NCBI GenBank assembly: GCA_964551435.1
Contig: CAZKBS010000001.1
Coordinates: 79,565 to 143,564, forward strand
Length of the DNA stretch: 64,000 nt
Source of the DNA: an uncultured Micavibrio sp.
GTDB lineage: Bacteria > Pseudomonadota > Alphaproteobacteria > Micavibrionales > UBA2020
Reading direction: 5' to 3'
Shown here: positions 1-62,706 of the stretch, in pieces
Layout: the number at the start of each line of letters is the position of its first letter
Position numbering within the stretch: position 1 is the first letter of the stretch
Position numbers and translations under genes: made by a program
Notes under the pieces: generated by a model
Database searches by the model: none
What the model saw: only the letters and a program-made list of their open reading frames with translations
What the model was told of the DNA's origin: nothing

Positions 1-12
1 GAAAAAAGCAAC

Positions 13-5288: not shown

Positions 5289-5474
5289 GCTGCGTTTCCG
5301 GTTGGAGAATAAACGAGGGTTTATACCTTGTAAGGAGGCATTTTTGTTATGTCAATGTTTCTGCGGAAATGCTGCAACGCGGGAAATATAAAAACACAAA
5401 GCGGATTGATAGAGATATTTTATTTCTATAGAGTGAATAAAATTCTTATTTTATGCACGCGAAGGGATTCAGCC

Positions 5475-6242
5475 ATGACTGTCCTCGCACTCGCCCGCCA
5501 AATATCAGATGTGCCGCAAGCTGCGGCGCAGGTGCCGAAGGCGGGCCCGCGTACAGCGGGGCCGCTGCGCGGTTACCTCATCAAACGTTTTGCCAAAGCC
5601 GCCACGCGGATTGTCGTCACCGCCCTCGCCGCCGCCGCGCTGGTCTATGGCGGGTATCTGGCCACGCATTACGCAGGCAAAGGCGTGCCGCTGACTGCGG
5701 GCGAGGCCGCGATGGTCGAAAGCGTGTTTGGCGAGGAAATCGACGCATCAAAAATGCGCAAGCACTTCCGCGAAACCTCTTTCGCTTACCGCCTTGCGCC
5801 CAAGACGGTTACGGGTATGGTTCTGCCGCCGCTCAGCCATATCGATTTTTATGGCGATGCAGGCCGCAGCGATGATTTTTCCAAAGACAATCCGCGCATG
5901 GCAAGCCTGTTCATGCACGAGGCCACGCACGTCTGGCAAAACCAGAACTGGCGATGGAGTTTGCATCACCTCGACAAGGTACGTCTCTATGACTACACGC
6001 TGGTTGAGGGGGCGCGTTTTGATTCCTTCGCGCTTGAACAGAAAGCCGAGATGGTCGGCGATTACATGCGCATCTGGCTGCACCCCAAAGGCAAAATACA
6101 AAGCGGGCATACGGCCAGCGCCGAAGATATCCTTCTGCGCGATGTGATCGAGGCGCGTTTTCCGCGCGCAAAAGAATCCCGCCTTGCCCTGCCGCCGCCC
6201 GCGAAGCTGGCGCCCGCAAAACCGAAAATGCCCAACAGCTGA
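5475..6242 (+). CDS. Membrane-anchored HExxH protein (putative Zn-metallopeptidase-like)
   Basis: Start at ATG 5475 with gaaggga RBS. N-terminal TM (IVVTALAAAALVYGGYLA). Contains the motif FMHEATHVWQNQ. Confidence 0.5.
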   Translation: MTVLALARQISDVPQAAAQVPKAGPRTAGPLRGYLIKRFAKAATRIVVTALAAAALVYGGYLATHYAGKGVPLTAGEAAMVESVFGEEIDASKMRKHFRETSFAYRLAPKTVTGMVLPPLSHIDFYGDAGRSDDFSKDNPRMASLFMHEATHVWQNQNWRWSLHHLDKVRLYDYTLVEGARFDSFALEQKAEMVGDYMRIWLHPKGKIQSGHTASAEDILLRDVIEARFPRAKESRLALPPPAKLAPAKPKMPNS

Positions 6243-8462: not shown

Positions 8463-9761
8463 ATGACCGAATTCCGCGATTCCGGCCTGCCGAACAACCC
8501 CGAAATGTTCAAGGCCTATCTGACCTATCGCCAGAATATCGAAAACCTGCCCGAAGAAATCCGGCAGGAAGAAGCGCCGCTGAAAGTCGCGCGCGTGCTC
8601 AGCGAACATACCAACGACAACAAGCCCGTGATCCTCGCGCTGCTCGGCCTGATGCCGGAAAGCACATGGGGCCTGATGGGCAAACGATTTGGCACCGATA
8701 TCGCCGAAAGCCTGCAGGAAAGCCGCCTGCATGTCGCAACCGGCTATGCCTATCTGCGTGACGCCAGCCCGCTGGTCAAGCAGATCACCCTTGCCGGCGC
8801 GATCAAGGCGTTTGAAAAAGTCGAGCAGGGCGCCCAAGAAATGGCCGAAAACCTGAGCGTCATCCGCATGTCCGGACAGGCGCCGATGAATTTCAAAACC
8901 CCGACGGTACTGCTCACCGATACCTATGCGAAAATCCGTAACGCCTGCGACGGTACGTCCGGCCTGCCCGCGCTCGAGGCGACCTACGCCGAAAAATTCG
9001 AACGCATGAAATACGCGCAGAGCGAGATGATCGCGCAAATGGCCGAGGTTGGCATTTTCATCGCCGGCATGCCGCCGGGCGCCGCGCCTGCGGAAATCCG
9101 CTATCCGACGTTTGAAGAAACCGGTTTGATGGATACACCGAAAGTACGCGCCGCCTATGACCTTTTGACCACGCATACGCGTGTGCGTCCCGAAGATTTC
9201 GAAGGCGCGATTTACGCAGCGCAGCTGCTCAGCACCGTCTCGACGACCAAAAACCCGACGGCTATCGCAGCCGCGCTGGTCGATATCGGCATCCGCGACA
9301 TCAATCCCTATGACGGTATGTTCCTGCAAAAGAAATTGGACTGGGACGTGCTGGAGGTTCTGAACACCGCGACGGTTTACCAAATCAGCCATCCGCAGCA
9401 GGTGCTGGGCGCCCCCATTGAATTCCGTCAGGTAGCCATCGCTAATGCCATCGCGGTGATGGACGATGCGCGCGAAGGCGGCAAGGAATTCATGCGCGTG
9501 GTCGCGGAAAATCCGGAATATCCCAAAAATTCCGTGCTGCAAAACATGCTGGCGCTGAAGCGCGTCAGCGTCATGTCGCAGCAATGCTTCGCCCCCGCCC
9601 TCGGCCGTACCGACATGCCGGAGCTGGACCGCCTGTTCGTCGACAAGCTGAAAGCGCTGAACGAATTTATTTCGCAGAACATGCCCGAGCAAAAAGCCCC
9701 CGCACCAAAGCCGAGCGAGCGCAAGCCGAAGCCCGAAAATGACGGTCCCGCCGGCCCCTGA
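8463..9761 (+). CDS. Hypothetical protein with a basic Pro-rich C-terminal tail
   Basis: 432-aa ORF with gaggag RBS. No family recognised. Ends in KAPAPKPSERKPKPENDGPAGP. Confidence 0.5.
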   Translation: MTEFRDSGLPNNPEMFKAYLTYRQNIENLPEEIRQEEAPLKVARVLSEHTNDNKPVILALLGLMPESTWGLMGKRFGTDIAESLQESRLHVATGYAYLRDASPLVKQITLAGAIKAFEKVEQGAQEMAENLSVIRMSGQAPMNFKTPTVLLTDTYAKIRNACDGTSGLPALEATYAEKFERMKYAQSEMIAQMAEVGIFIAGMPPGAAPAEIRYPTFEETGLMDTPKVRAAYDLLTTHTRVRPEDFEGAIYAAQLLSTVSTTKNPTAIAAALVDIGIRDINPYDGMFLQKKLDWDVLEVLNTATVYQISHPQQVLGAPIEFRQVAIANAIAVMDDAREGGKEFMRVVAENPEYPKNSVLQNMLALKRVSVMSQQCFAPALGRTDMPELDRLFVDKLKALNEFISQNMPEQKAPAPKPSERKPKPENDGPAGP

Positions 9762-11702: not shown

Positions 11703-11990
11703 CTAACTTTTTTTGGAACTACGCATCGCGCCGGGACGCTTCAGTCCCGGCTTGGGCGCCGTGTCATTCGGATACATTTCGGCACGCATCTGCTGCACTT
11801 CCCGCGCCATGCGGTTGAAGGCATCCAAAAGCTGGCGGTTGACTTGCAACAGCTGGCGCTGTTCATCGCGCAAGGATTTCACCTCATCGCGCAGCGCCTT
11901 GATGTCGCGCTGGTTGTCAGCCACCCCTTTGGCAGAGGTTTTGGCGTTATCGATGATCTCGCGCTTGTCGTAGTAGCTCCACTCGCTCAT
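11703..11990 (-). CDS. Small coiled-coil protein, paralog of the upstream gene
   Basis: 95 aa. Heptad-like core (ALRDEVKSLRDEQRQLLQVNRQLLDAFNRMAREVQQMRAEM) and a basic tail (KPGLKRPGAMRSSKKS). Confidence 0.5.
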   Translation of the reverse strand: MSEWSYYDKREIIDNAKTSAKGVADNQRDIKALRDEVKSLRDEQRQLLQVNRQLLDAFNRMAREVQQMRAEMYPNDTAPKPGLKRPGAMRSSKKS

Positions 11991-12268
11991 GGCAGGCTCC
12001 TGCGACGCGGCGGCTTTTGCGGGCGCAGGCTGGCCGGTTTTTGCATGGACGGCTTCAGGTCTTCGCGCAGCCCGCGAATTTCGCGCGTCATCCCCTCGAG
12101 AGCATCCGCGACGCGGTTGAAAGCACGCGCCATCTCGGCATCGTTTTTTATACCCTGATCGGATTGTTCCTTGAGCAGGCGGAGAAGTTTATGCGTGACC
12201 TCGTCGCCACTGCGCACCGCCGCGAGAATCTCGCGCACAACCTTCAGGTCTGTACTATCCATCGGCAT
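11987..12268 (-). CDS. Small coiled-coil protein, paralog of the downstream gene
   Basis: 93 aa. Shares the AFNR[VM]A...R..L/M core and a basic tail (SLRPQKPPRRRSLP). ATGA overlap with the next gene. Confidence 0.5.
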   Translation of the reverse strand: MPMDSTDLKVVREILAAVRSGDEVTHKLLRLLKEQSDQGIKNDAEMARAFNRVADALEGMTREIRGLREDLKPSMQKPASLRPQKPPRRRSLP

Positions 12269-23329: not shown

Positions 23330-23920
23330 ATGCCCTCTTTCCGCGACATTTTCCGCCGCGCCAGCGAATCCGAAAAAGCGCAAAAGCGTATGGAAGCCGC
23401 CAATAAAACAAACCTGCGCGGCACCAACGAGCTTTTCCGCGCGATTGAACGCGGCGCGCACAGCGACGTGGTTAAACTGATCGAGGACGGCGCCGATATC
23501 CACGCACGCAGCAAATCGCAAAGCATCTTGTCCAACATGATGTTCCGCGTGCCCTATGCCGCGGGCTCGACGCCGCTGCATGCGGCGGCGCTGCTGGGGC
23601 ATTTCAATATTGCCGATACGCTGTTGCGCCACGGCGCCGACCCGAATGTCCGCAACAACGAAGGCCACACCGCGCTTGATTACGCGCTGATGAGCCACGC
23701 GTGGTTCGAGGATAACCTTGCCAAAAAGCAACAATCCAGCATCACGCTGGCGCGCTTTGTCAGCGCGGCCGCCGATAAGGTCAATATCTATCAGCGGACC
23801 ATCACCCTGCTGCTCGCGCGCAACGGCAAACCCGGCCTGCTGGAGCTGCCGGAGCGGTTCAAAGAAATGATCCCCGCCAAACGCCGCAAAGCCCCACAGG
23901 AAGACGGCCCCGGGCTTTAA
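23330..23920 (+). CDS. Ankyrin-repeat protein
   Basis: GSTPLHAAALLGHFNIADTLLRHGADPNVRNNEGHTALDYAL. aggag RBS. Tail AKRRKAPQEDGPGL. Confidence 0.85.
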   Translation: MPSFRDIFRRASESEKAQKRMEAANKTNLRGTNELFRAIERGAHSDVVKLIEDGADIHARSKSQSILSNMMFRVPYAAGSTPLHAAALLGHFNIADTLLRHGADPNVRNNEGHTALDYALMSHAWFEDNLAKKQQSSITLARFVSAAADKVNIYQRTITLLLARNGKPGLLELPERFKEMIPAKRRKAPQEDGPGL

Positions 23921-23936
23921 GCCTTTTCAAAAAATA

Positions 23937-24434
23937 TCAGGAACAGCCCGGCCCGCGTGGCGGACGGGGACGCAGGCGAAATGCATCTGCACCGCCAGCG
24001 GCATCTATGTGCGCCTCGAGCGCCGCGCGCGCAACTGCATCAAAAGCGGACTGCGCGGTGGTTGTTTCCTCGCCGGTCTCTTCTGCGGCGGTGCCGGATA
24101 TCGGGGCTTCGGGCGTCAGGTCGTCTTCATCATGGCGACGCGCGCCGCAGCTGCGCAAGTATTCGGCAATTTGCGGATGGTCTTCGGCAATCGCGGTATC
24201 CAGCGGAAAATCACCCACGCGGTCGGCGACGTTGAGCTTCGCCCCGCCGCCCACCAGCACCTTGACCATCAAAAGATCGCCCTGAATGACCGCTTCGTGC
24301 AGCGGGGTGATATCGGGGCGGTCTGCCGCGACGTTCGGGCTTTCACCCGCTGACAACCGCGCCCGCACGGCGCTGACGCTGCCCGATTGCACGGACTTGA
24401 GAAAGGCCTGTTCCTGTGCGCTGAGTCGTGACAT
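23937..24434 (-). CDS. Ankyrin-repeat protein
   Basis: ITPLHEAVIQGDLLMVKVLVGGGAKLNVADRVGDFPLDTAI. Tail FRLRPRPPRGPGCS. Confidence 0.85.
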   Translation of the reverse strand: MSRLSAQEQAFLKSVQSGSVSAVRARLSAGESPNVAADRPDITPLHEAVIQGDLLMVKVLVGGGAKLNVADRVGDFPLDTAIAEDHPQIAEYLRSCGARRHDEDDLTPEAPISGTAAEETGEETTTAQSAFDAVARAALEAHIDAAGGADAFRLRPRPPRGPGCS

Positions 24435-24439
24435 GGCGG

Positions 24440-25213
24440 TTACGGCTGCGGCGGTTTTTTGCCGCCGGTTTTGGGCGGACGTGTGCCAAGACGGAAATCC
24501 GGCTGCACATAGGATTCAAGCTGCGCGCGATGCGCGGCGGCCATGAAGGCATCCACATCATGCGCGGCGGCATAATCTTTGGGCAGGGCATCCCACAGTT
24601 TGCGGAACTCATCGGGTGCGTCTTTCCAGACATCGACATCCATCAAAAGCGGCAGCTGGCCCTGCTGGCAAATCTTCAAAATCGTGCTGTCACCATCGGC
24701 ACCGCGCGCAGTCAGATCGCCTGCGGTAAGTTTATCGGGCGTGCCGGCCGCCGCGCGTGCCAGCGTCATGACAGCGGCAAGCCCGCCGCGACTGACCGCA
24801 TGGTGAAACTGGTCACTGAGGTTTTCAAAACTGGCCCGGCGCATATCGGCAAGAGAGCCAAACGGCAGCGCGGTTTCCGCACGCACCGCAGAGACCGCCA
24901 GCGCGGCAAGGCGATAGGCGGCGGCATCATGGCCCATCGCGCGGGCCAGCTGTTCGGGCGTACGGCCATCGGCGTCATAGGATACGGCAGGCACGCCGCG
25001 CGCCACAAAGGCGGTAATCGTTTCCGTCTCGCCCCACAGCGCCGCAAAATGCGTCAGGCTGCGGCCCGCTTCATCCGTCCAGCGCGGGTCAAGACCGGCA
25101 TCCAGCGCCGCCAGCAAATCTGCGCCGCGGCGCGCATCGATCATATCGGCGATATTTTCGTCGCTAAAACGCGGCGCGGGTGGCGTTGTTTTCGGGGGCT
25201 GTTTGCGGGCCAT
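24440..25213 (-). CDS. Ankyrin-repeat protein
   Basis: GRSLTHFAALWGETETITAFVARGVPAVSYDADGRTPEQLA. Tail FRLGTRPPKTGGKKPPQP. Confidence 0.75.
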   Translation of the reverse strand: MARKQPPKTTPPAPRFSDENIADMIDARRGADLLAALDAGLDPRWTDEAGRSLTHFAALWGETETITAFVARGVPAVSYDADGRTPEQLARAMGHDAAAYRLAALAVSAVRAETALPFGSLADMRRASFENLSDQFHHAVSRGGLAAVMTLARAAAGTPDKLTAGDLTARGADGDSTILKICQQGQLPLLMDVDVWKDAPDEFRKLWDALPKDYAAAHDVDAFMAAAHRAQLESYVQPDFRLGTRPPKTGGKKPPQP

Positions 25214-25261
25214 GTTATTTCATCCTGCTGCGCGCGCGTTTTACAGCGCACCGGTTGTTTT

Positions 25262-26497
25262 TTAAGTCGTGCCCGGACCGCGCGGTTTGCGCGGGCGGGG
25301 CTTGAGGCGGATATCGTCCGCCTGTTCGTCGGCACGGCGGTTCAGCTCTTCGCGCTGGTATTTATAAATATCGCGCACGGCCGCGTCGAAATCGACCTGC
25401 ACCTTGGCGCGCGGGTCCGCATCGATATAGGGGCGCAGCGCCAACATTTCATCCAGCCGGTCGCGCCAGACCACTGCGGTAAACAGCGACGACAGCCGGC
25501 GGCTGGCGATGAAGGCTTCAAGCAGCGTTTCACCGCCATAATAATCGCTGCGTTTCAGCAAATCCGCGCGGGTCAAACCGCCCTTGCTGCGCGCTATCGC
25601 ATCCATCACGAAATCTATCTTGCCCATGCGCACAAGGAAATGCAGCGCCGTCGTTTTGCCATCGAGGCCGATGGGCACATAGGCGCGCAGATCGGTAATC
25701 GTGAGCTCTTCGGGGCGGCGGCTGAACAGCGTGCGCGCGCCCTTGGCATCCAGCGTTTTATAAATCTCGTGCCAGGCGGTGCCGAGCAAATCCTTGGCCC
25801 CTACCCACCACAGCATATCAAGCGACGTTTCGCCGCGTCCGCTTACGGCATGCACATCCGCGCCCGCCGCCAGAAGCGCGTTGACCTTGCCGGTATCGCA
25901 GCGTGCAATCGCCAGATGCAAGGCGGAGTAGCGCGCGCGCCCTTCGGTATTTTCAATCGCATTGGCATCCGCGCCAAGGCGCAGGGCGCGCTCCACCTCT
26001 TCGGTCGTGCCTTTATGGATGGCGCGCATCAGGACCTTGTCGATGCGCGTCTGGTAATTGCTGACCAGCACTTCGTCGGGCAGGTAGCGCGGGTCGTTGC
26101 CGATCAGCTGGAAATTCGCTCCCGCATCGGACAGCAGCCGGATACCCAGCGTGAAATGGTTGCGATAAGCAGCATCGAGCGCGCTGGCGCCGTCGTTGTC
26201 GGTATCCGACAGTTCGGCGTCATATTCGATCAGCAGCTTCAAAAGCGCGGCATCGCCCCGCTCCACCGCTGCATGCACGGGCGGCAAACCGCCCGGCAGG
26301 ACGCGGTCAGGGCAGGCGCCCGCTTTCAGCGCCGCTTCAATTTCCGCATGGTCGATGACGCCGCGTTTCATCGCGGCAAGAAAACGGTTATCCGCCGCTT
26401 CCTGCGCCGCCGTTTTCACAGCATCAGCCACCGTACTGCAAAGAAGCTTTTGCAGCGGCTGGTCGTCGTCGATGTCACGCGGCTGGCGGGGGGACAC
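25262..26497 (-). CDS. Ankyrin-repeat protein (multi-repeat, 411 aa)
   Basis: LPPVHAAVERGDAALLKLLIEYDAELSDTDNDGASALD and YSALHLAIARCDTGKVNALLAAGADVHAVSGRGETSLD. Tail IRLKPRPRKPRGPGTT. Confidence 0.85.
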   Translation of the reverse strand: MSPRQPRDIDDDQPLQKLLCSTVADAVKTAAQEAADNRFLAAMKRGVIDHAEIEAALKAGACPDRVLPGGLPPVHAAVERGDAALLKLLIEYDAELSDTDNDGASALDAAYRNHFTLGIRLLSDAGANFQLIGNDPRYLPDEVLVSNYQTRIDKVLMRAIHKGTTEEVERALRLGADANAIENTEGRARYSALHLAIARCDTGKVNALLAAGADVHAVSGRGETSLDMLWWVGAKDLLGTAWHEIYKTLDAKGARTLFSRRPEELTITDLRAYVPIGLDGKTTALHFLVRMGKIDFVMDAIARSKGGLTRADLLKRSDYYGGETLLEAFIASRRLSSLFTAVVWRDRLDEMLALRPYIDADPRAKVQVDFDAAVRDIYKYQREELNRRADEQADDIRLKPRPRKPRGPGTT

Positions 26498-38889: not shown

Positions 38890-39771
38890 ATGCGTTTCAC
38901 TGACCATTTCAAAAAAGCCGTCGGCCTGTGGCCGCCGAAGGGCCCTTATACCGCGCTGAGACAGATGCTGTCCGGCGGCGGTGATGTCACGCATATGCCC
39001 GCGCTGCTGCGTGAATACCCCGATGCCGCGCGCTGGGAGAAAAAAGGCGACATGCAGCCGCTGCATTACGCGCTGTGGCAACGCAACTATGCCGCCGCCG
39101 AAATTTTGCTGGAACATGACCATAGCCTCCTCCGCGATGCGGGCGACGATGGCGTGACGATTGTGCACCGCTATGCCGCGCACGGCGAAACCCATGCGCT
39201 GCAATTTCTGGTTCATCAGGGCGCCGATTTGAATTTGCAAGACCGCAACGGCCGCACCGCGCTGCATCACGCGGCGATGAACCGTTACAACGGGGGGAAT
39301 ATCGGGCTGCTGCTGCGCTATGGCGCGCAAGCGGACATACGCGATTCAGACCGCCGCACCCCCCTGATGATAGCGCTGATGACGGGTAACAAGGCGGGCG
39401 CGGAGGCGCTGATTAAAAAACCGTTCGATGCGCGGCAAACCGATGCCTTTCGCCGCACGCTGCTGATGGCGGCGGCGGAAACCGGCATGGATCATTTAAT
39501 GCCGCAGCTGCTGCGTGCGGGCGCGGATATCCATGCGGTCAATCCGCTGGGCGAAACCGCGCTTGGTCTGGCCATCAAGAAAAAACACGCGCGCGCCGCG
39601 CTTTTGCTGGTCGAGGCCGGCATGCCCGCGACCTTTGACTATAAATGGCGCAAGAAACTCGGCAATCTCATCCGCCCGCTGGAGGGCAGCGAGCCTGCGC
39701 TGCGCCGCCTTGGCCTGCGCCCGTCGCCAAAGAAAAAGGCGAGCTTTGCGCAAGGACCCAAACCTTATTAA
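38890..39771 (+). CDS. Ankyrin-repeat protein (about 6 repeats)
   Basis: MQPLHYALWQRNYAAAEILLEH, GRTALHHAAMN, RRTPLMIALMTGNKAGAEALI, GETALGLAIKKKHARAALLLVEAG. Tail RRLGLRPSPKKKASFAQGPKPY. Confidence 0.85.
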   Translation: MRFTDHFKKAVGLWPPKGPYTALRQMLSGGGDVTHMPALLREYPDAARWEKKGDMQPLHYALWQRNYAAAEILLEHDHSLLRDAGDDGVTIVHRYAAHGETHALQFLVHQGADLNLQDRNGRTALHHAAMNRYNGGNIGLLLRYGAQADIRDSDRRTPLMIALMTGNKAGAEALIKKPFDARQTDAFRRTLLMAAAETGMDHLMPQLLRAGADIHAVNPLGETALGLAIKKKHARAALLLVEAGMPATFDYKWRKKLGNLIRPLEGSEPALRRLGLRPSPKKKASFAQGPKPY

Positions 39772-39792: not shown

Positions 39793-40542
39793 TTAGCGCT
39801 GCGGCCCCTTGCTGTCTTTTTTCGGCGCGGCGGCGGGCGGCGTATAGGCCGTGCGCTGTTCATGAATGGTCTGACCGGGGATGCCGTATTTATCACGGAA
39901 CGAGCGCGACAGACCGCCCGCCGGATCCCAGCCGCCATGCGTGAGCGCGCTATCCAGTTCACGCGTCAACTGCGCGAAGGCTTCGGGTATTTTATGGCGG
40001 TGATCGGCCAGCTGGTTCATGCTCGCCTGCACGCTGATGCTGCAGCGGTAACCGGCCAGACCCGCCTGATTGAACATCGACGACAGCTGCTGCTGGCTGA
40101 GGACCAGTGCGGTGATATCGGTTTTTTGTTCGTTCATGAACTTCATATAGTCCATGAACTTGAAATAATGCTGATGTCCTTCCAGCACGAATTCACGCGC
40201 GATATCGACCTTGAGCGCATCGACCTTGCCGTCGGCGCCGAAACTGCAGGCGGGTACGTATTGCTTGCCGTTGAATTCGATCAGCAAAGCTTCACCGCGG
40301 TCGGCCATGGCGATGAACTCTTGCGCGCTCACGCCTTGTTTTTTCGCGGCTTCCTCCACGCTCAGGGTCGGCTGGGTTTGCAAAAATGCTTCGGCATCGG
40401 CATAGAGCCTGCGGTAGGTATCCGGCCCTGCCATGACGCGCGCTTCGATGCCTGTATATTTCGGCAAGGCAGCGATCAGGTCATCAAGCGGGCGGGCGGT
40501 TTTAAAAATGCGCGTACCGTCGTAGGGGTTTTTGTCGGTCAT
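39793..40542 (-). CDS. Hypothetical protein with a basic C-terminal tail
   Basis: 249-aa ORF. No family recognised. Ends in PPAAAPKKDSKGPQR. Confidence 0.45.
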   Translation of the reverse strand: MTDKNPYDGTRIFKTARPLDDLIAALPKYTGIEARVMAGPDTYRRLYADAEAFLQTQPTLSVEEAAKKQGVSAQEFIAMADRGEALLIEFNGKQYVPACSFGADGKVDALKVDIAREFVLEGHQHYFKFMDYMKFMNEQKTDITALVLSQQQLSSMFNQAGLAGYRCSISVQASMNQLADHRHKIPEAFAQLTRELDSALTHGGWDPAGGLSRSFRDKYGIPGQTIHEQRTAYTPPAAAPKKDSKGPQR

Positions 40543-43086: not shown

Positions 43087-43158
43087 CGGAAGGAATATCC
43101 TGAACGAGGCATGGGAACTTTTTTGCAAGCTCCAAGATAATACGTCCGCGCAAAAGTT

Positions 43159-53641: not shown

Positions 53642-53655
53642 GAAAACACCCTTTC

Positions 53656-56420: not shown

Positions 56421-56479
56421 ATCCAGAAATACCCCCGTCAGACGCGCCCCGATCGTCACCGGAATCGCTGGTTGACACT

Positions 56480-58016: not shown

Positions 58017-58316
58017 TCAGGAGCCGGTATCCTGAAGCTTGCGGCGGCGCGTCCAGATCCAGCCCGGACGCTTGGTGCCGACCAGCCAGACGCGCAGCGA
58101 ACGCAGCGCGGCCGGAAAGGACAAACCCTTGCGCTCGAGCAGATAAAAAATAAACAGCATGCCGACAAGAAGGCAGATCGTCCAGATACGGAAATGCAGC
58201 AGCACCAGCGCGACAAAAAGACCCGCACGCGCATCGAAACTGAAGAACCGTACGGTCTTCATCGTATTACGCCAGTGCCACGAGCGGCCTTCGTCTTCGT
58301 CTTTATCTGCTGCCAT
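58017..58316 (-). CDS. icmT: Type IVB secretion protein IcmT (TraK-like)
   Basis: 99 aa. WHWRNTMKTVRFFSFDARAGLFVALVLLHFRIWTI...LERKGLSF fits the IcmT/TraK pattern (WRDS..(F)F..DA...hydrophobic..H.R.WT). Starts 5 nt after dotB. Confidence 0.75.
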   Translation of the reverse strand: MAADKDEDEGRSWHWRNTMKTVRFFSFDARAGLFVALVLLHFRIWTICLLVGMLFIFYLLERKGLSFPAALRSLRVWLVGTKRPGWIWTRRRKLQDTGS

Positions 58317-58321
58317 TTATA

Positions 58322-59515
58322 TTAATTTCCCCCTGCCGTTTCTTCTTCGCCTGCTTCCTGTTTGGTGCCTTGTTGGTAGATCAGGTAGTGGCGCCTTTCG
58401 ATGAGACCGGCTTCGAAAGCGTCTCTGGCCGCTTTTTCCATGGTTTTTCCGTATTTCGGAACCATCTGCATCAGCTCCAGCGGCCATTGGTCGAAGGTCA
58501 GGCTGAGCAAACGCTCGCGGATTTCTTCGGTAAAGGGCATGTATTCGCGCAGCGCCACGCGGCCGCCGCCGATTTTCGGCACCAGCGTTTGCGTGACCAC
58601 CATGCGGATGGTTTCCATCAGGGCGAAAGCACGTTCGGTACGCTCCGACGGCTCGAAGGTCGAGACCATGCGTCGGATTGTCGCCGCCACACCCGTCGTG
58701 TGCACCGTAGCGTAAACGGTGTGACCCGTCTGCCCCGCTTCGATGGCGGCAGAAATGGTTTCGCGGTCGCGGGCCTCACCCACCAGAATGATTTCGGGCT
58801 TGCGGCGCAGTGCGTTACGCACGCCCGCGGCGAAGGACGGCAGGTGGCGCGGAATTTCCGACTGCGCAACCAGCGAGCGTTTCGCCTGAATGGTATCGTA
58901 GGTAAACTCGATCGGCGCCTCGTAGGTCAGCATCTTGCCGCAGCCGTGCAGACTTTCGATGAGCATGCGGTTACCCGCCGCCAGCAGGGTGGATTTGCCC
59001 GAACCCGTCGGCCCCGTGACCAGCACAAGACCCTGACGCGGCTTCCAGTTGGCGATGATTTCCGGCTCGATGTTCAGCTGTTTCATTGTCGGCGGCGCGG
59101 AGGGCAACGTACGCATCGTGACCTGTACGCCGTCGCGGCCATCGGCCAGAATAGCCGTCATGTTCACACGGAAACGCGTGCGCGTGAAACGGTCGGTCAT
59201 GACCTCGTAGGACAAGTCGATGTCGGCGCCGCCCGCGAGAATAGCGAGGGCTTCTGTACCGTAGAGTTTGACGAGAACCGCCGCCATGTCCGCCGCGTCA
59301 AGCGCGCGGTAGGTGGACGGGTAAAGCGTGCCGTAAATCTCGCTGTAAACGGGACGGTTGGACTGGAAGGTGATATCCGACGCGCCCTTCTTCACGCACC
59401 ACAGCAGAAAGGGGTCGATGTGATGCTCCAGAAAACGGTCGGGTTCAGCCGGCCATGTCTCCTTGAGGTCGTCGACGCCTTTCTTGAGGAGACTTACCGG
59501 TCTGCCGGCTTCCAT
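58322..59515 (-). CDS. dotB: Type IVB secretion ATPase DotB (TraJ-like; PilT-superfamily hexameric ATPase)
   Basis: Walker A LVLVTGPTGSGKSTLL. Asp box and His box (GHTVYATVHT). About 397 aa. Sits between dotC and icmT. Confidence 0.85.
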   Translation of the reverse strand: MEAGRPVSLLKKGVDDLKETWPAEPDRFLEHHIDPFLLWCVKKGASDITFQSNRPVYSEIYGTLYPSTYRALDAADMAAVLVKLYGTEALAILAGGADIDLSYEVMTDRFTRTRFRVNMTAILADGRDGVQVTMRTLPSAPPTMKQLNIEPEIIANWKPRQGLVLVTGPTGSGKSTLLAAGNRMLIESLHGCGKMLTYEAPIEFTYDTIQAKRSLVAQSEIPRHLPSFAAGVRNALRRKPEIILVGEARDRETISAAIEAGQTGHTVYATVHTTGVAATIRRMVSTFEPSERTERAFALMETIRMVVTQTLVPKIGGGRVALREYMPFTEEIRERLLSLTFDQWPLELMQMVPKYGKTMEKAARDAFEAGLIERRHYLIYQQGTKQEAGEEETAGGN

Positions 59516-60672
59516 AGATCTGCACCTGTCAGGAATTGCGAGGGGCCGGTGATGCGCAGGGCACGGTCGCCGACACGCATCTCGTTGCCGCCGCCCGTCA
59601 CGCCGCGATCTTCATGCAGCGCATAGGGTTGGGAAATTTTACCTTCGGCCAGCAACAGGCGATAACGCACCATGCCATTATAATCGGCGGTCAGCTGGTT
59701 GAGACCGGTTTCAAAAGCCTCTTCGGCCTGCTGGAAACCTGCATCCCAACCGTCCTTCACCCAGCCGCTCCATTCGCCCTGCTCTTTGGCGTTTTTCGGC
59801 CAGAGGATGCGCGGCGGCGGCGTAATTTCGGATTCATAGTTCATGACCAGATACTGGCGCCAGTTACGCGCCGTCGGCACGATTTTCGCCTGCTGGTTGA
59901 TTTTGAGAACCTGATCGGCAACGGCAGCTTCAACGCCGCCCTCGGTAATCACCATCGCGCCAAGGGACTCTTTCACGATCGGCGGCTCGATCAGCAGACC
60001 CGAAGGCGCTTTCACGAGCAGCGGACGGAAATCGAATACCTTGTCGAGTACACGCTCGTAACCGCCCAGACGCTCGAGGATCTGGTAGTTGCGCTTGGCG
60101 AGACCGCCGCGCGCGCCGTAAGACAGGGCCGCTTCGCGCTGCGCGTCGCGGCGCATGTCGAGGGCGATTTCTTTCGAAATCAGATCATCGACGATTTCGG
60201 GCGTCGTGCCGTGGGTTTTGTGAACCTGCTGGAGGCTGATCAGCTCCGGCGGCGGTTTGACGTTGTCGAGCGGATTGATTTCAGGCTTCTGCGGCTGGAT
60301 GCCGAAGAGATCGATGCTCGATTTCGCTTTATCGGCCAGCTTGCCGGCTTTATAGGCCGGGCTATCGGGATCGAGAATATCGCCCGTGTAGTTGCCGCCA
60401 CCAAAACCTGCATCCGCCTGAATGCCGGGAACGCCCTGCATGGGCGCCTGACCGTAGGGCGTGCTCGGCACTTGCTGCATCGGGAAGGGCGATGCGCCTG
60501 CTTTTGCAGCGGCGGCTTGCTGGTCAGCCAGCGCCTGCGCGAGTGCATCGGGCGTCAGTTGCTGTTGCTGCGCCTGCGCGCCTGCCGAAAAAGCCGTCAG
60601 CAGCGCTGCGGCGCAAAGACCGAGAAACAGGCGGGACAAGGCCAGACGATTAACCACCGGAAACGGGCGCAT
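59494..60672 (-). CDS. dotC: Type IVB secretion outer-membrane-complex protein DotC (TraI-like)
   Basis: Signal peptide. Core AALSYGARGGLAKRNYQILERL...LDKVFDFRPLLV...LIEPPIVKE...ARNWRQYL matches my recollection of the DotC/TraI family. N-terminal Gln/Ala/Pro-rich extension. Confidence 0.75.
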   Translation of the reverse strand: MRPFPVVNRLALSRLFLGLCAAALLTAFSAGAQAQQQQLTPDALAQALADQQAAAAKAGASPFPMQQVPSTPYGQAPMQGVPGIQADAGFGGGNYTGDILDPDSPAYKAGKLADKAKSSIDLFGIQPQKPEINPLDNVKPPPELISLQQVHKTHGTTPEIVDDLISKEIALDMRRDAQREAALSYGARGGLAKRNYQILERLGGYERVLDKVFDFRPLLVKAPSGLLIEPPIVKESLGAMVITEGGVEAAVADQVLKINQQAKIVPTARNWRQYLVMNYESEITPPPRILWPKNAKEQGEWSGWVKDGWDAGFQQAEEAFETGLNQLTADYNGMVRYRLLLAEGKISQPYALHEDRGVTGGGNEMRVGDRALRITGPSQFLTGADLWKPADR

Positions 60673-61138
60673 AGTTCAACTCCACAACACGTTGATCGGG
60701 ATCGACGACGATATTAGCACGCAGTCCGGCCTGCAGGCCAAGATCGCGCAGAACCTCGACAACCGATTTCTGCTTGGCCTGTACGTTGACGACAAGCGGT
60801 GCAGACGGCTGATCGCCGTTGACCTGGAATTCATAACCCGCACGGTCGGCGAGACGTTTGGCGATGGGCTCGATCGGGCCGGCCCAGTCAACCGAAACGG
60901 TACGGCGCAGTTCCTGCGGTGCATACGGCGCGGCTTGCACCGATACGCCGGGATTGCGCGCCTGCTCGACCGATGCGAGGGTTTGCAGTGCGGAGGAAGC
61001 TTTGTCGACAGCCGCGGCAAGACGCAGGCTGACCGGGTCGGGAGTAGCGACCATCTGATGATCGATCTTCGCCGCCGGTGCGCAGGCCGAAAGAGCGAGC
61101 AGAGCCGCGGCACCGATAAAAGAAATTTTTTTGTTCAT
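60650..61138 (-). CDS. dotD: Type IVB secretion lipoprotein DotD (TraH-like)
   Basis: MNKKISFIGAAALLALSAC lipobox. 162 aa. C-terminal N0-like domain (VSVDWAGPIEPIAKRLADRAGYEFQVNGDQPSAPLVVNV...VVELNY). Confidence 0.8.
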   Translation of the reverse strand: MNKKISFIGAAALLALSACAPAAKIDHQMVATPDPVSLRLAAAVDKASSALQTLASVEQARNPGVSVQAAPYAPQELRRTVSVDWAGPIEPIAKRLADRAGYEFQVNGDQPSAPLVVNVQAKQKSVVEVLRDLGLQAGLRANIVVDPDQRVVELNYAPVSGG

Positions 61139-61204
61139 GAGAGTTGTTCCATCACTGCCCGAAAAAAGGGAAACACATTTGCGTGGACTGATTTTAACCA
61201 TTTT

Positions 61205-61232
61205 CAGTCGCAATGCAAACGGCATGCGACTG
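61205..61232. other. Stable hairpin in the transglycosylase-dotD intergenic region
   Basis: CAGTCGCAATGC-aaacg-GCATGCGACTG (one bulged base). Flanked by T/A runs. Confidence 0.4.
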
Positions 61233-61290: not shown

Positions 61291-61755
61291 TCATCCGGGC
61301 TTGCGGCGGGCCTGCTGGCGCTGCGCGGCGGCGACCAGATCGTCAGGGCTACGCACCAGGCGGTAACGCTGCATGGCGTCCATGACCTTGCTGCGGTATT
61401 TGCTGCCCAGATGCGGGGTCGCGGAATGATAATAGGCGATGCCCTGATAGAGGCTGCCCGTCTGGTTAATCTTTTTGCGTAAAATCCAGGTGCCGACGCC
61501 GATATTGACGCAGGCGTCATCGCGCACAAGACGGTGTGCGGTTTCGCGCGGCACGTTCCAATGGCGCGACAATTCGGGAATCCAGATCGTATTGATCTGC
61601 ATCGGGCCGAGGTCATACGTATTGTTAGTGTTTTTGGACGCCATGCCGATGCGCCCGCCCTCGACATGCAAAATGCCGAGAATCAGCGCTGGCGGCACGG
61701 AATAGGTCTGTGCCGCGGTAAAAATACAAACTGCCAGCGCCTGCGCCGTCATCAT
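61291..61755 (-). CDS. Lytic transglycosylase (SLT domain; VirB1/specialised T4SS-type)
   Basis: ILGILHVEGGRIG...YDLGPMQINTIW...NIGVGTWIL...YYHS. Catalytic Glu in HVEGG. Confidence 0.75.
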   Translation of the reverse strand: MMTAQALAVCIFTAAQTYSVPPALILGILHVEGGRIGMASKNTNNTYDLGPMQINTIWIPELSRHWNVPRETAHRLVRDDACVNIGVGTWILRKKINQTGSLYQGIAYYHSATPHLGSKYRSKVMDAMQRYRLVRSPDDLVAAAQRQQARRKPG

Positions 61756-61821
61756 GGCTGTGGTGCGTCCTTTAATACCGTATGTCTTGTCGTTTCGCTG
61801 CCGCGCGAAGCAGGGCCGCCA

Positions 61822-62706
61822 TCAATTACGGGCCAGTTCCGATTCGAGCAGCATCATATTCGACGGTTTGCCTGCAATCACCGTCAGCTTGCCGTCATCC
61901 GGACGGCGATAAATCGTAAAGGGCGTTTTGGCCAGACCAAAAGTCTTCACCATTCGCGTATTGGCGTCAATCGCAGCCAGCGAGCCATCGACAGCTTTTT
62001 CCTTTGCCAGTGCATTTTGCTTGCCCGCAATATAATCGGACCATGCCGCCCCCGGATCTGCGCTCGACAGCAGCGCCGCCCCGCCTTCGCGGTTGGCCTG
62101 CGCCTGACCGAAGGGCACAAGGCGCACTTGCAAACGGCCCGCTTTCACCGCCGGCTCCAGCGCTTTCCAGTATTCCTTGCAGTGGTCGCAGTTCACGTTC
62201 ATGAACATATAAAGATAAGGCGCATCCTGTTTGCCGGCCTGCACCCAGGCGGCTTTTTTCTCGACCGTGGCATAGAAGCGTTCGGATTTGGAAACATTGC
62301 TGGACGGCTCTTCCGCGCCCGGAATGGCCTCTTGCGAGCCTTCCATTTTGGCCTTGAGCGCGTGCAGCTGGCTCATGGTTTCGACTTCGCCTTGCGGATT
62401 GACGAGATTGCCCAGCACAAGGCCGCCCTGCGGCGTCGTGTAGGCGGTGCGCGGCGGGATGTCCTTGCGCGTCAGAAGCCAGCCATCGAGGCCATAGGCA
62501 TGACCGATGAATTCGACATCGCCGCCTTCGCTTTTGAATTTTTCCAGCTCCGGATGGCGCAGTTCATTGCCCGGTGCGGCCGTGGCGGGTACAGGCTGCT
62601 GCGCGGTCGGTGCCTTTTGCGCGGCAGCCGTCAGCGGCAACGCAAGTGCGGCGCATACAACAGCGGCGGCAACCGTTTTTTTGAAACCGTGAGCGTTCTT
62701 CATCAT
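61822..62706 (-). CDS. Periplasmic thiol:disulfide interchange protein (DsbC/DsbG-like; TrbB-like)
   Basis: Start at ATGATG 62706 with aaggaga RBS. Signal peptide ...LPLTAAA|Q. Has an N-terminal dimerisation-like domain and a thioredoxin fold with NCDHCKEYW (CxxC) and a late TPF cis-Pro-like motif. Confidence 0.75.
   Translation of the reverse strand: MMKNAHGFKKTVAAAVVCAALALPLTAAAQKAPTAQQPVPATAAPGNELRHPELEKFKSEGGDVEFIGHAYGLDGWLLTRKDIPPRTAYTTPQGGLVLGNLVNPQGEVETMSQLHALKAKMEGSQEAIPGAEEPSSNVSKSERFYATVEKKAAWVQAGKQDAPYLYMFMNVNCDHCKEYWKALEPAVKAGRLQVRLVPFGQAQANREGGAALLSSADPGAAWSDYIAGKQNALAKEKAVDGSLAAIDANTRMVKTFGLAKTPFTIYRRPDDGKLTVIAGKPSNMMLLESELARN

What the first reader, a model, noticed from the sequence alone, without database searches (positions are those of the whole stretch)
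23330..26497. Ankyrin-repeat proteins share a basic Pro/Gly-rich C-terminal tail, a candidate T4SS translocation (or host-targeting) signal
Reading the last 15-25 residues of the repeat proteins shows a recurring tail. Examples: ...AFRLRPRPPRGPGCS (23937-24434), ...DIRLKPRPRKPRGPGTT (25262-26497), ...DFRLGTRPPKTGGKKPPQP (24440-25213), ...AKRRKAPQEDGPGL (23330-23920), ...RRLGLRPSPKKKASFAQGPKPY (38890-39771), ...ARRPQKPRGGGGFTL (63417-64000) and ...PVRKGKGPGGFRL (62974-63420). Weaker versions occur on non-ankyrin hypotheticals: 8463-9761 (KPSERKPKPENDGPAGP), 39793-40542 (PKKDSKGPQR) and the small coiled-coil pair at 11703-12268. The core is [FI]RL.[PT]RP..[KR]..GPG. T4SS substrates are recognised through unstructured C-terminal signals. 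Arg-rich RxR-type tails are the established signal for VirB/D4 substrates, whereas Dot/Icm signals are usually described as Glu-rich or small-polar. A conserved Arg/Pro/Gly tail attached to a type IVB system would therefore be a distinct signal class. An alternative is that KKK/RRK-type tails act as eukaryotic nuclear localisation signals.
Basis: partly seen in the sequence, partly recalled or inferred. Interest (0 to 1): 0.82.

Follow-up and report, generated by a model that had tools for sequence, protein, structure and literature searches.

The report
Shared basic tails mark likely effectors
In a Micavibrio-related alphaproteobacterium that carries part of a Legionella-type (type IVB) injection machine, ankyrin-repeat proteins and several unrelated proteins end in the same kind of floppy, positively charged, proline/glycine-rich tail; the tail is conserved across related species and is most likely the address label for export through that machine, but this is untested.

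Summary
All seven ORFs are ankyrin proteins, their C-termini read as quoted, and dotD, dotC, dotB and icmT are in the window. A tail score (K+R+P+G minus D+E, last 20 aa) separates the ANK proteins from the other 57 (p=3.5e-5). Such segments are about 37 times commoner at C-termini than internally.

It is not a GC artefact: R:K is 1:1 in the tails and 5:1 in non-coding-frame ORFs. The tails persist in orthologues down to roughly 25-50% identity, with synonymous codon changes. AlphaFold models them as disordered after a terminal helix.

Two corrections apply. The proposed core regex matches nothing literally. Its "FRL..RP" part belongs to three tandem paralogues.

The cross-family signature is a basic/Pro block ending in K-[GP]-P-x-x* or G-x-F-x-Φ*. 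It occurs on ANK proteins, an alarmone-hydrolase-like family (77 clusters), a T4BSS-linked ClpB-like ATPase and orphans. Housekeeping and T4BSS structural proteins lack it, except IcmT, which has a basic end of another kind.

Best reading (~0.5): a Dot/Icm-type C-terminal signal with the Glu-rich block replaced by a basic/Pro block. Type I, Agrobacterium RxR and NLS consensus tests were not met. This is a new variant of a known kind and is unproven.

The parts
25262..26497 (-). ANK protein A (411 aa). The tail IRLKPRPRKPRGPGTT* is encoded at 25262-25312.
   Evidence: Pfam ANK. There are 23 orthologues at 53-98% identity that keep [IL][RK]LKP[RK]P..KPDxP; L398, K399 and P400 are nearly invariant. 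In the AF2 model a helix spans 370-395 and is followed by low-pLDDT coil.
24440..25213 (-). ANK-like protein B (257 aa). The tail FRLGTRPPKTGGKKPPQP* is encoded at 24440-24496.
   Evidence: Weak Ank_2 hit. It is a paralogue of A over the C-terminal half. Orthologue tails are DFRLGRRPPKGPKP, DFSLARRPPKQ..PKN and IRLKDLKPKK.
23937..24434 (-). ANK protein C (165 aa). The tail FRLRPRPPRGPGCS* is encoded at 23937-23981.
   Evidence: Pfam ANK. Orthologue tails are AFRLPPRRKNAPRP and KFHLGKS..GKPSGPPGP. It shares the helix + FRL + tail module with A and B.
23330..23920 (+). ANK protein D (196 aa). The tail PAKRRKAPQEDGPGL* is encoded at 23873-23920.
   Evidence: Pfam ANK. Orthologue tails are LPRRRQKPQDGAPKV, LPKRRKNADGPKAG and ..KNPKPNGGF. 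It is the only tail with a K[KR].[KR] NLS-like match.
38890..39771 (+). ANK protein E (293 aa). The tail LRPSPKKKASFAQGPKPY* is encoded at 39715-39771.
   Evidence: Pfam Ank_2 at 113.6 bits. The orthologue in L032 ends ..GLRPSPKPRQTWPLPKF.
62974..63420 (-). ANK protein F (148 aa). The tail VRKGKGPGGFRL* is encoded at 62974-63012. It lies 78 bp upstream of the dsbG-like gene of the T4BSS string.
   Evidence: Pfam ANK. Orthologues in L008, L009, L011, L012 and L013 end ..GGF[RK]L* with synonymous codon variation. Gene gaps are given.
63417..63998 (-). ANK protein G (its N-terminus runs off the window). The tail RRPQKPRGGGGFTL* is encoded at 63417-63461. Its stop codon overlaps the start of F.
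   Evidence: Pfam ANK. Orthologues end KPRGGGGF[TA]L*, KPRHGGFTL* and, in L015, KKGGHGFNL*.
8463..9761 (+). Non-ANK family H (432 aa, all-alpha, small-alarmone-hydrolase-like fold). The tail KAPAPKPSERKPKPENDGPAGP* is encoded at 9693-9761.
   Evidence: No Pfam or NCBIfam hit. AF2 pLDDT is 86, with residues 413-416 and 419-432 below 50. Foldseek's top hits are RelH/Mesh1. The family has 77 clusters, and almost all end in a P/K/R/G tail finishing F-x-Phi(D)* or GPxx*.
39793..40542 (-). Non-ANK family I (249 aa). The tail PPAAAPKKDSKGPQR* is encoded at 39793-39840.
   Evidence: There are 28 clusters. A variable 8-22 aa tail follows a conserved domain end and finishes KGPQR, KGPKA, AKPPKP, KKPPKP or SAPRP.
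11703..12268 (-). Two small tandem coiled-coil proteins (95 and 93 aa) with K/R/P tails.
   Evidence: Tails are shown. Orthologues in L029, L030 and L031 keep basic/Pro tails of different sequence.
5349..6242 (+). Orphan family J (297 aa), ending RLALPPPAKLAPAKPKMPNS*.
   Evidence: No family hit. The conserved RFPRAxxSRLAL motif plus an A/P/K tail is seen in L029 and L031.
58017..61225 (-). T4BSS core genes: dotD (60650-61225), dotC/traI (59494-60672), dotB (58322-59515) and icmT/traK (58017-58316).
   Evidence: Pfam PF16816, PF16932 and PF00437. NCBIfam NF038220. The genes overlap or lie close together.
61291..62895 (-). T4BSS-linked accessory genes: a DsbG-like thiol:disulfide interchange protein (61822-62895) and an SLT lytic transglycosylase (61291-61755).
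   Evidence: PDB DsbG match at E=8e-13. NCBIfam DsbG and Pfam SLT hits.

Best explanation
The tails are C-terminal recognition signals that mark cytoplasmic proteins for export through the chromosomal Dot/Icm-like type IVB secretion system of this Micavibrio-related alphaproteobacterium.

Anatomy (shown). After the last helix of the folded domain comes a disordered stretch of 12-30 residues. It is rich in Lys/Arg, Pro and Gly and nearly free of Asp/Glu. It ends either in K-[G/P]-P-x-x-COOH or in G-(x)-[D/Q/S]-F-x-[L/M/F/A](D)-COOH.

Mechanism (inferred). The coupling-protein complex (homologues of DotL/DotM/DotN) binds the exposed tail. The terminal hydrophobic residue or Pro at -3/-4 would play the role described for Legionella RalF. 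The basic/Pro block would replace the Glu-rich E-block, which implies a co-evolved receptor surface that is acidic rather than basic.

The cargo is a set of ankyrin and other repeat proteins, a conserved alarmone-hydrolase-like protein and lineage-specific orphans. They would be delivered into a eukaryotic host or into bacterial prey.
For: (1) Position and disorder. The tail-like composition is about 37-fold enriched at C-termini over internal windows, and it is the top-scoring segment of every ANK protein. AF2 gives a terminal helix followed by low-confidence coil for A and H.

(2) Selection. The tails are kept in orthologues of A (53-98% identity), of B, C and D, F and G, H down to E=1e-24 among 50%-identity clusters and I. 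R-to-K swaps and synonymous codon changes occur within them.

(3) Modularity. The same endings occur on unrelated folds: ANK proteins, the SAH-like H family, a ClpB-like AAA+, orphans I and J, and L031:8467-9792 (KGPDFGM*). In alignment A2 the Phe is invariant.

(4) Specificity. By family mean, the tail families score 8.5 or more and the housekeeping families 5 or less. Examples are Der, BamB, RadA, L20, Icd, NadA/B and FlgK. DotB, DotC and DotD also score 5 or less.

(5) No Sec-type hydrophobic N-terminus or TM segment is seen in A-I or the coiled-coil pair. The orphan J is borderline: its 19-residue hydropathy maximum is 1.82, in the range of the membrane and secreted controls.

(6) Linkage. 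ANK G and F head the co-directional string dsbG-slt-dotD-dotC-dotB-icmT, and this synteny holds in six or more genomes.

(7) Literature. A hydrophobic residue at -3/-4 is a known Dot/Icm signal feature (PMC3052360). The Legionella effector CegC3 ends ..SRFTM (PMC5802825). That paper's authors suggest that DotM interfaces co-evolve with non-acidic tails in other species. Basic C-termini typify alphaproteobacterial type IV effectors (PMC3814349). T4BSS clusters have been reported in Micavibrionales MAGs (PMC9418006).
Against: - There are no translocation data.
- Only dotD, dotC, dotB and icmT were seen. DotL, DotM, IcmS and IcmW were not located, so the receptor is hypothetical.
- The E-block is absent (0 of 64 proteins), so the best-studied Dot/Icm recognition mode does not apply.
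- The focal A-D tails have Pro, not a hydrophobic residue, at -3/-4.
- A conserved 350-370 aa ANK protein next to the T4BSS lacks a basic tail.
- The tail also sits on a ClpB-like ATPase and on small coiled-coil proteins, which may not be cargo.
- IcmT, an apparatus protein, also ends in a basic segment.
- The sample is about 64 proteins plus the same few regions in relatives, not a proteome.
- The A-D cluster lies about 32 kb from the T4BSS genes.
Confidence: 0.5

Rival explanations
1. The tails are short linear motifs that act inside the target cell, not export signals. Candidates are nuclear localisation, SH3/WW-type proline-motif binding, or binding to acidic membranes.
For: The tails are basic and Pro-rich. 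Family D carries KRRK, kept as RRRQK, KRRK or KKK in orthologues. A and C contain [RK]xxPxxP. The cargo includes eukaryote-like ANK, Sel1 and HEAT/TPR proteins.
Against: K[KR].[KR] occurs in only 1 of 12 tails, and the SH3-type matches are not conserved in orthologues. SLiMs need not sit at the extreme C-terminus, yet here the position is invariant. The conserved element is the very end (GPxx* or FxPhi*), which is unusual for an NLS. Relatives are labelled Micavibrio, a predator of bacteria (PMC3189940), so a eukaryotic nucleus may not even be the target. The two roles are not mutually exclusive.
Confidence: 0.1
2. The tails are C-terminal signals for a type I (ABC/MFP/TolC) secretion system, as shown for Orientia and Ehrlichia ankyrin proteins.
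For: T1SS signals are C-terminal, uncleaved and unstructured, and Orientia Anks are T1SS substrates (PMC4315096). Micavibrio relies on T1SS with RTX proteins (PMC3189940), and a 2507-aa HemolysinCabind protein lies in relative L033. Endings such as GNDFSFD*, GGNDFNA* and QEFDL* loosely recall a Gly-rich/Asp stretch followed by a hydrophobic terminus.
Against: The compositional criteria are not met. LDAVTSIF is 47% in tail proteins and 52% in the others. KHPMWC is 23% against 18%. The C-terminal 20-aa pI is 10.9, not acidic. There are no RTX repeats, and only a single Gly cluster. No T1SS genes lie next to these genes, whereas T4BSS genes do.
Confidence: 0.1
3. The tails are generic disordered basic extensions of fast-evolving, lineage-specific proteins, serving solubility, nucleic-acid or ribosome association, or nothing at all. 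No dedicated recognition machinery exists.
For: Sequence and length vary a lot between orthologues. Weak versions occur on many orphans. Net charge alone is not discriminating. IcmT, which is not a substrate, also has a basic end.
Against: Specific endings recur across unrelated families and persist to roughly 25-35% identity. Pro residues in the H tail are invariant (P429) or nearly so (P408, P415). The strict C-terminal position and the enrichment on repeat proteins with p=3.5e-5 argue against a generic extension.
Confidence: 0.15
4. The tails are a tag read by another cytoplasmic machine. One candidate is the T4BSS-linked ClpB/ClpV-like AAA+ unfoldase; another is a C-terminal-specific protease. 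The tag would act as a degron or unfolding tag rather than a secretion signal as such.
For: A divergent Clp/Hsp100 ATPase sits beside the T4BSS/ANK genes in five relatives. C-terminal F-x-Phi endings resemble class II PDZ/Tsp-type ligands; this rests on general knowledge and was not tested.
Against: The ATPase carries the same tail itself, which is odd for a receptor. There is no evidence of interaction. The ATPase lies outside the window and was not examined further.
Confidence: 0.1
5. The tails are an artefact: GC-rich codon bias, mis-called stop codons or frameshifts produce P/G/R-rich ends.
For: The genome is 59% GC. Non-coding-frame ORFs also have raised scores, with a mean of 5.5 and 5.7% at 10 or more.
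Against: Lys (AAR codons) is as common as Arg in the tails, against 1:5 in non-coding frames. The tails are conserved in genomes of 50-60% GC with synonymous variation. Independent gene calls on public contigs give the same ends.
Confidence: 0.02

Closest known systems
Legionella/Coxiella Dot/Icm (type IVB) C-terminal translocation signals (RalF-type -3 hydrophobic residue; E-block bound by DotM)
   Same: - The machine is of the same class: dotD, dotC, dotB and icmT are present.
- The signal sits in the last ~20-30 disordered residues.
- Many tails end F-x-Phi, with a hydrophobic residue at -3/-4 (compare CegC3, which ends ..SRFTM).
- The signal is attached to ANK and other repeat proteins.
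   Different: - There is no Glu-rich block. The stretch is net positive and rich in Pro and Gly instead of Ser/Thr/Glu.
- Half of the tails end GPxx, not in a hydrophobic residue.
- The lineage is alphaproteobacterial (Micavibrio-like), not Legionellales.
- The receptor has not been identified.
VirB/VirD4 (type IVA) positively charged C-terminal signals of alphaproteobacterial effectors (Agrobacterium VirF/VirE2/VirE3; Anaplasma/Ehrlichia; the tail following the Bartonella BID domain)
   Same: The C-terminus is net positive and hydrophilic, with at least 3 H/R/K in the last 25 residues (12 of 12 tails). The bacterium is an alphaproteobacterium and the cargo includes ANK proteins.
   Different: The Agrobacterium consensus R-X7-R-X-R-X-R (recalled from memory) is matched by none of the tails. 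Lys is as frequent as Arg. Pro/Gly richness and the defined endings are not part of that signal. The only secretion genes seen here are type IVB. No BID-like domain was found: Pfam reports only ANK.
Type I secretion signals of Orientia/Ehrlichia ankyrin proteins
   Same: The signal is an uncleaved C-terminal signal on bacterial ANK proteins of an alphaproteobacterium.
   Different: The composition and pI criteria are not met, and there is no linkage to T1SS genes.
XVIPCD C-terminal domains of Xanthomonas/Stenotrophomonas antibacterial T4SS effectors
   Same: A shared C-terminal element marks diverse cargo. The use may also be against bacteria, if this organism is a predator.
   Different: XVIPCD is a folded domain of about 120 residues bound by VirD4 of a type IVA system (PMC8740702). 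Here the element is a disordered tail of 12-30 residues.

Membership tests
Dot/Icm (T4BSS) C-terminal signal, Legionella type | A type IVB apparatus is encoded by the organism | tested here: met
   DotD, DotC and DotB and IcmT are present. This is only part of the system. Micavibrionales MAGs carrying such (pT4SSi) systems are reported in PMC9418006.
Dot/Icm (T4BSS) C-terminal signal, Legionella type | The signal lies in the last ~20-35 residues and is unstructured | tested here: met
   The compositional maximum is at the C-terminus. AF2 gives low pLDDT after the terminal helix.
Dot/Icm (T4BSS) C-terminal signal, Legionella type | Hydrophobic residue at -3 or -4 (PMC3052360, citing Nagai 2005) | tested here: inconclusive
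   The rule is met by F and G, by many H-family members, by the ClpB-like protein and by L031:8467 (F at -3/-4). Only 2 of 7 window ANK tails have a hydrophobic residue there. All 7 have a hydrophobic residue or Pro, against 25 of 52 other proteins.
Dot/Icm (T4BSS) C-terminal signal, Legionella type | Glu-rich E-block (EExxE) or acidic stretch bound by DotM | tested here: not met
   EE..E occurs in the last 30 aa of 0 of 64 proteins. Ten of the 12 tails have no Glu at all in the last 20 residues.
Dot/Icm (T4BSS) C-terminal signal, Legionella type | Tail-dependent, Dot/Icm-dependent translocation | not testable with these tools
   This needs reporter fusions in wild type versus a dotB or dotL mutant.
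VirB/VirD4 (T4ASS) positively charged signal | At least 3 H/R/K and net charge of at least +2 in the last 25 residues (S4TE, PMC3814349) | tested here: met
   H/R/K of 3 or more in 12 of 12 tails and charge of +2 or more in 9 of 12. However, 43 of 52 and 14 of 52 other proteins also pass, so the criterion is weak.
VirB/VirD4 (T4ASS) positively charged signal | Agrobacterium consensus R-X7-R-X-R-X-R (recalled from memory) | tested here: not met
   No match in any window protein.
VirB/VirD4 (T4ASS) positively charged signal | A VirB/VirD4 apparatus is present | not tested
   None is in the window.
Type I secretion C-terminal signal | Last 60 aa rich in LDAVTSIF and poor in KHPMWC, with an acidic pI (PMC4315096) | tested here: not met
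   LDAVTSIF is 47% (background 52%). KHPMWC is 23% (background 18%). The pI of the last 20 aa is 10.9.
Classical monopartite NLS | K-[KR]-x-[KR] core | tested here: not met
   Present in only 1 of 12 tails (family D, KRRK).
BID / XVIPCD-type folded translocation domains | A conserved folded C-terminal domain of about 100-120 aa | tested here: not met
   Pfam reports only ANK families on A-G. The element shared by A, B and C is one helix plus a disordered tail.

The most novel reading that the evidence does not exclude
Micavibrio-related alphaproteobacteria use a charge-inverted Dot/Icm signal. It is a Lys/Arg-Pro-Gly block ending in GPxx* or G-x-F-x-Phi*, read by a co-evolved (acidic) DotM/DotL surface. 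Delivery may be assisted by a T4BSS-linked ClpB-like unfoldase that docks through the same tail. The cargo includes a conserved 'core' effector with an alarmone-hydrolase fold, and the target may be bacterial prey rather than a eukaryote. If so, this would be a second, independently readable address code for type IVB systems and would allow effector discovery in a whole uncultured order.
Probability: 0.3. Interest if true: 0.8.

Novelty: new variant of a known kind. Interest (0 to 1): 0.6.

Why it matters
Type IVB effector prediction relies on Legionella/Coxiella rules: an E-block, small polar residues and a hydrophobic residue at -3. A conserved, easily scored basic/Pro/Gly tail with defined endings in a different class of bacteria would do three things.

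- It would give a direct way to list candidate substrates in uncultured Micavibrio-like genomes.
- It would test the prediction of Meir et al. (PMC5802825) that DotM surfaces co-evolve with the charge of effector tails.
- It would help decide whether these bacteria, which are related to an epibiotic predator reported to have no T4SS (PMC3189940), inject proteins into prey or into eukaryotic hosts.

If the tails turn out not to be export signals, they remain an unusually clear example of a conserved C-terminal linear motif shared by unrelated bacterial proteins.

Tried and rejected
- **Literal core motif.** It was replaced by family-wise tail comparison.
- **Database-wide fishing with a tail profile.** An HMM built from alignment A2 gives its own members at most 27 bits, too little for a library of billions, so the search was not spent on it.
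- **Metagenome scan with the H protein.** It returned only 90-99% identical loci. This identified a 2.56 Mb same-species contig but added no evolutionary depth. Depth came from protein searches instead.
- **Charge-only (S4TE-like) criteria.** They are not discriminating in this window.
- **T1SS, Agrobacterium RxR, NLS and SH3 consensus tests.** None was met or conserved.
- **PDB, Pfam and NCBIfam searches of the four paralogues at 51031-56459.** They gave nothing.
- **Literature searches.** No description of these tails or of effectors in Micavibrionales was found.

Full report
**1. What is in the sequence**

The window is about 59% GC. A codon-usage-based gene call gives about 66 genes. 24440-25213 hits only weakly (Ank_2 at 22.7 bits, below the 27.3 cut-off). 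Their C-termini read exactly as quoted.

The type IVB genes are real. DotD is PF16816 at 128 bits, DotC/TraI is PF16932 at 235 bits and DotB is T2SSE at 118 bits. The 99-aa ORF at 58017-58316 is IcmT/TraK (NF038220, 86 bits against a cut-off of 40). Upstream lie a DsbG-like protein and an SLT transglycosylase. ANK G and ANK F head this co-directional string. The stop of G overlaps the start of F, and F ends 78 bp before the dsbG-like gene.

**2. Is it more than chance?**

I scored the last 20 residues as (R+K+P+G) minus (D+E).
- The seven ANK proteins score 7-13. The other 57 proteins have a median of 3 (Mann-Whitney p=3.5e-5).
- Six of the top seven scores in the window are ANK proteins.
- A score of 10 or more occurs in 0.42% of internal 20-aa windows, 15.6% of C-termini and 4.7% of N-termini.
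- In every ANK protein the best-scoring window lies at or within a residue or two of the C-terminus.
- 'GP' within the last eight residues occurs in 7 of 64 proteins (about 2% expected), and all seven are in the tail set.

- Arg:Lys is 28:30 in the tails and 824:163 in the ends of 280 non-coding-frame ORFs.
- Conserved tail residues are encoded by different synonymous codons in different genomes, for example Leu by CTC, CTG, CTA and TTG, and Phe by TTT and TTC.

Net positive charge alone is not discriminating (Fisher p=0.17). The signal is the combination of basic residues, Pro and Gly with a lack of acidic residues.

**3. Corrections to the observation**

The literal core regex [FI]RL.[PT]RP..[KR]..GPG matches none of the proteins. 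A loosened form matches only A (25262-26497), B (24440-25213) and C (23937-24434), each at its C-terminus.

These three adjacent genes are paralogues whose similarity runs through the C-terminal region. A and B align at 25-29% identity over 120-220 aa. B aligns with the L005 orthologue of C at 37% over 54 aa. The 'FRL..RP' element is therefore inherited by duplication, and three of the four focal tails are not independent observations. Even so, that element is the best-conserved stretch after the paralogues diverged to about 25% identity.

**4. Where it comes from**

Contigs carrying identical or near-identical genes exist in public assemblies, including a 2.56 Mb same-species contig.

Scanning one genome per species with DotC returned 18 loci. 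They come from MAGs labelled Micavibrio sp., Rhodospirillaceae or Alphaproteobacteria, at 48-92% identity. The lineage is therefore related to Micavibrio, an epibiotic predator of bacteria. The genome paper for its type strain reported no T4SS (PMC3189940). Such (pT4SSi) systems were later noted in marine Micavibrionales MAGs (PMC9418006).

The dotD-dotC-dotB string lies near the flagellar genes flgK/flgL both in the window and in Micavibrio-labelled MAGs. This points to an old chromosomal system rather than a recently acquired element; that is an inference.

**5. Conservation**

- **Family A.** It has 23 orthologue clusters at 53-98% identity. All keep [IL][RK]LKP[RK]P, a variable insert, then KP[DG]xP. 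L398, K399 and P400 are nearly invariant.
- **Families B, C and D.** The syntenic orthologues in four other genomes all keep basic/Pro tails of differing length and sequence.
- **Families F and G.** The orthologues end in ..K(K)GxGPGGF[RK]L* and ..KPRGGGGF[TA]L*. In L015 the ending is KKGGHGFNL*.
- **Family H (8463-9761).** This non-ANK family was followed through 30 clusters and then 77 clusters at 50% identity by exhaustive HMMER. Nearly every full-length member has a P/K/R/G-rich tail. The endings are either F-x-Phi(D)* or GPxx*/PG[FM]*. Examples of the first kind are GNDFSFD, GQDFSLD, GGGQSFSM, GQSFDL, GGDFGM and GRSFDL. Examples of the second are NDGPAGP, KGPKL, NGPSI and RGPR. P429 in the tail is invariant in the 29-sequence alignment.
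- **Family I (39793-40542).** Its 28 clusters share a conserved domain end followed by a variable tail of 8-22 residues. The tail finishes KGPQR, KGPKA, AKPPKP, KKPPKP, PKPPQP or SAPRP. These endings are almost identical to those of the unrelated ANK proteins B (KKPPQP, KGPKP) and C (NAPRP).

**6. A cross-family signature**

I aligned the ends of five unrelated families: ANK F/G, H, a ClpB-like AAA+, D from L002, and later L031:8467-9792 (KGPDFGM*). The consensus is ..KPKxGG..FxL, with an invariant Phe.

A family-level table of all fetched loci separates the tail families from the rest.
- Tail families have mean scores of 8.5-13.
- Housekeeping families score 5 or less. Examples are Der, BamB, RadA, L20, Icd, NadA/B, CtaA and FlgK/L.
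- DotB, DotC, DotD, the DsbG-like protein and the TcpQ-like protein also score 5 or less.
- IcmT is the one apparatus protein with a basic end (..TRRRKLQDTGS), but that end is of a different kind.

**7. Physical nature**

AlphaFold2 models of A (pLDDT 82) and H (pLDDT 86) both end in a long helix followed by low-confidence coil. In A the helix spans 370-395 and the last three 10-residue blocks have pLDDT 61, 52 and 40. In H the helix spans 386-406 and residues 413-416 and 419-432 are below 50.

None of the tail proteins A-I or the two coiled-coil proteins has a Sec-like hydrophobic N-terminus or a TM segment, unlike the BamB, DotC and Sel1 controls. The orphan J is borderline, with a 19-residue hydropathy maximum of 1.82 against 1.74-1.96 for the controls. 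These proteins would need a one-step export route if they are exported at all.

**8. Comparison with known signals**

- **Legionella Dot/Icm.** Position and disorder fit. A hydrophobic residue at -3/-4 (PMC3052360) fits the F-x-Phi class; CegC3 ends ..SRFTM (PMC5802825). It does not fit the focal A-D tails, which have Pro there (7 of 7 hydrophobic-or-Pro, against 25 of 52 other proteins). The E-block is absent (0 of 64). Meir et al. showed that basic patches on DotM bind acidic tails, and they proposed that DotM co-evolves with different tails in other species (PMC5802825). A basic tail would need the opposite surface.
- **Type IVA.** The S4TE criteria (at least 3 H/R/K and charge of at least +2 in the last 25 residues; PMC3814349) are met but are non-specific here. 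The Agrobacterium R-X7-R-X-R-X-R consensus, recalled from memory, is not matched.
- **Type I.** The composition and pI criteria used for Orientia Anks (PMC4315096) are not met.
- **NLS.** One of 12 tails matches.
- **Folded translocation domains (BID, XVIPCD).** None is detected.

**9. Most likely explanation and its limits**

The tails are best explained as C-terminal recognition signals for the chromosomal T4BSS, in which a basic/Pro block replaces the Glu-rich block. I put this at about 0.5.

Shown:
- the composition, position and disorder of the tails;
- their conservation in orthologues;
- their modular spread over unrelated folds;
- their absence from housekeeping proteins;
- the linkage of F and G, and in relatives of other tail-bearing genes, to the T4BSS string.

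Inferred:
- binding to the coupling complex, and translocation itself;
- the target cell.

Points against:
- There are no functional data.
- The coupling proteins were not found.
- A conserved T4BSS-adjacent ANK protein has no basic tail.
- The tail also occurs on a ClpB-like ATPase and on small coiled-coil proteins.
- The sample is small.

The rivals, with the probabilities I assign, are:
- a motif that acts only in the target cell (0.1);
- type I secretion (0.1);
- a generic disordered extension (0.15);
- a tag for another cytoplasmic machine (0.1);
- an artefact (0.02).

**10. Novelty and score**

Basic C-termini on alphaproteobacterial type IV effectors are known, and so are C-terminal Dot/Icm signals. 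Three things are new here.
- An E-block-free, Lys/Arg-Pro-Gly tail with two defined endings occurs alongside a type IVB system.
- The lineage (Micavibrio-like) has no described effectors.
- A deeply conserved, non-ANK tail-bearing family has an alarmone-hydrolase-like fold. Foldseek gives probability 1.0, E about 0.04 and target TM about 0.6, but no invariant HD dyad is present.

I rate it a new variant of a known kind, with interest 0.6. The genome-wide survey, the DotM electrostatics and reporter translocation would decide it.

Noticed in passing
window 51031-56459 (-): Four tandem paralogous ORFs (442, 434, 485 and 449 aa) lie directly downstream of dotD-dotC-dotB-icmT and the TcpQ-like gene. 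They have no Pfam, NCBIfam or PDB match. They are conserved in relatives and share their own short C-terminal ending, ..[RK]P[VT][NKR][QNRP]* (KPVNQ, RNTNQ, LPTNQ, RPVKN, PVRR).
   Followed up: partly
L009:1284-4217 (-), L011:425-3163, L012:448-3183, L013:1368-4187, L025:3764-6487 (just beyond the window's right end): A divergent ClpB/ClpA/ClpV-like AAA+ protein of 907-977 aa scores below all NCBIfam equivalog cut-offs. It sits beside the T4BSS/ANK genes and carries the same basic tail (..RKRKPSGGNDFNA*, ..RKPRKSAGKDFNA*, ..KKRRNGPSL*). It could be a secretion-linked unfoldase or itself cargo.
   Followed up: partly
window 8463-9761 (+): The H family is all-alpha (AF2 pLDDT 86). Its best structural matches are small alarmone hydrolases (RelH, Mesh1, PaSAH). 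The alignment shows no invariant HD dyad, so it may be a pseudo-enzyme or have a different chemistry. The family has 77 clusters at 50% identity.
   Followed up: partly
window 58017-62895 (-): The gene order dsbG-like, SLT, dotD, dotC, dotB, icmT resembles, from memory, the traH-I-J-K order and DsbC-like trbB of IncI plasmid R64. Here the string is chromosomal and lies next to flgK/flgL and RNase J. The same neighbourhood is found in Micavibrio-labelled MAGs.
   Followed up: partly
window 63417-63420: The stop codon of ANK G overlaps the start codon of ANK F (CTATGA). This overlap is conserved in relatives and suggests translational coupling of the two tail-bearing ANK genes.
   Followed up: partly
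window 56565-57890 (-): This 441-aa protein has a C-terminal TcpQ domain and a weak STN (secretin N-terminal) match. Its C-terminal part resembles an unnamed 'Lipoprotein' chain in PDB entry 9u5s (E=1.2e-6). It is conserved after icmT in all relatives and may be a lineage-specific outer-membrane part of the T4BSS.
   Followed up: partly
window 5349-6242 (+); L031:3457-5497: The orphan J family has a conserved ..RFP[RQ]A[KRQ]x[ST]R[LM]AL motif followed by an Ala/Pro/Lys tail. It is present as three tandem paralogues in a distant relative.
   Followed up: no
window 41743-43128 (-), 2254-3480 (+), 1-2121 (+), 27393-28190 (+): Further eukaryote-like repeat proteins are present: a seven-repeat Sel1 protein, a HEAT-like protein, a TPR protein and a signal-peptide-bearing Sel1 protein. 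The first two have Pro-rich but only weakly basic ends. The last has an acidic Ala/Pro end.
   Followed up: partly
L033:1-714: A 2507-aa HemolysinCabind (RTX) protein lies in a more distant relative that carries an I-family gene. This is a reminder that type I secretion is prominent in this group.
   Followed up: no
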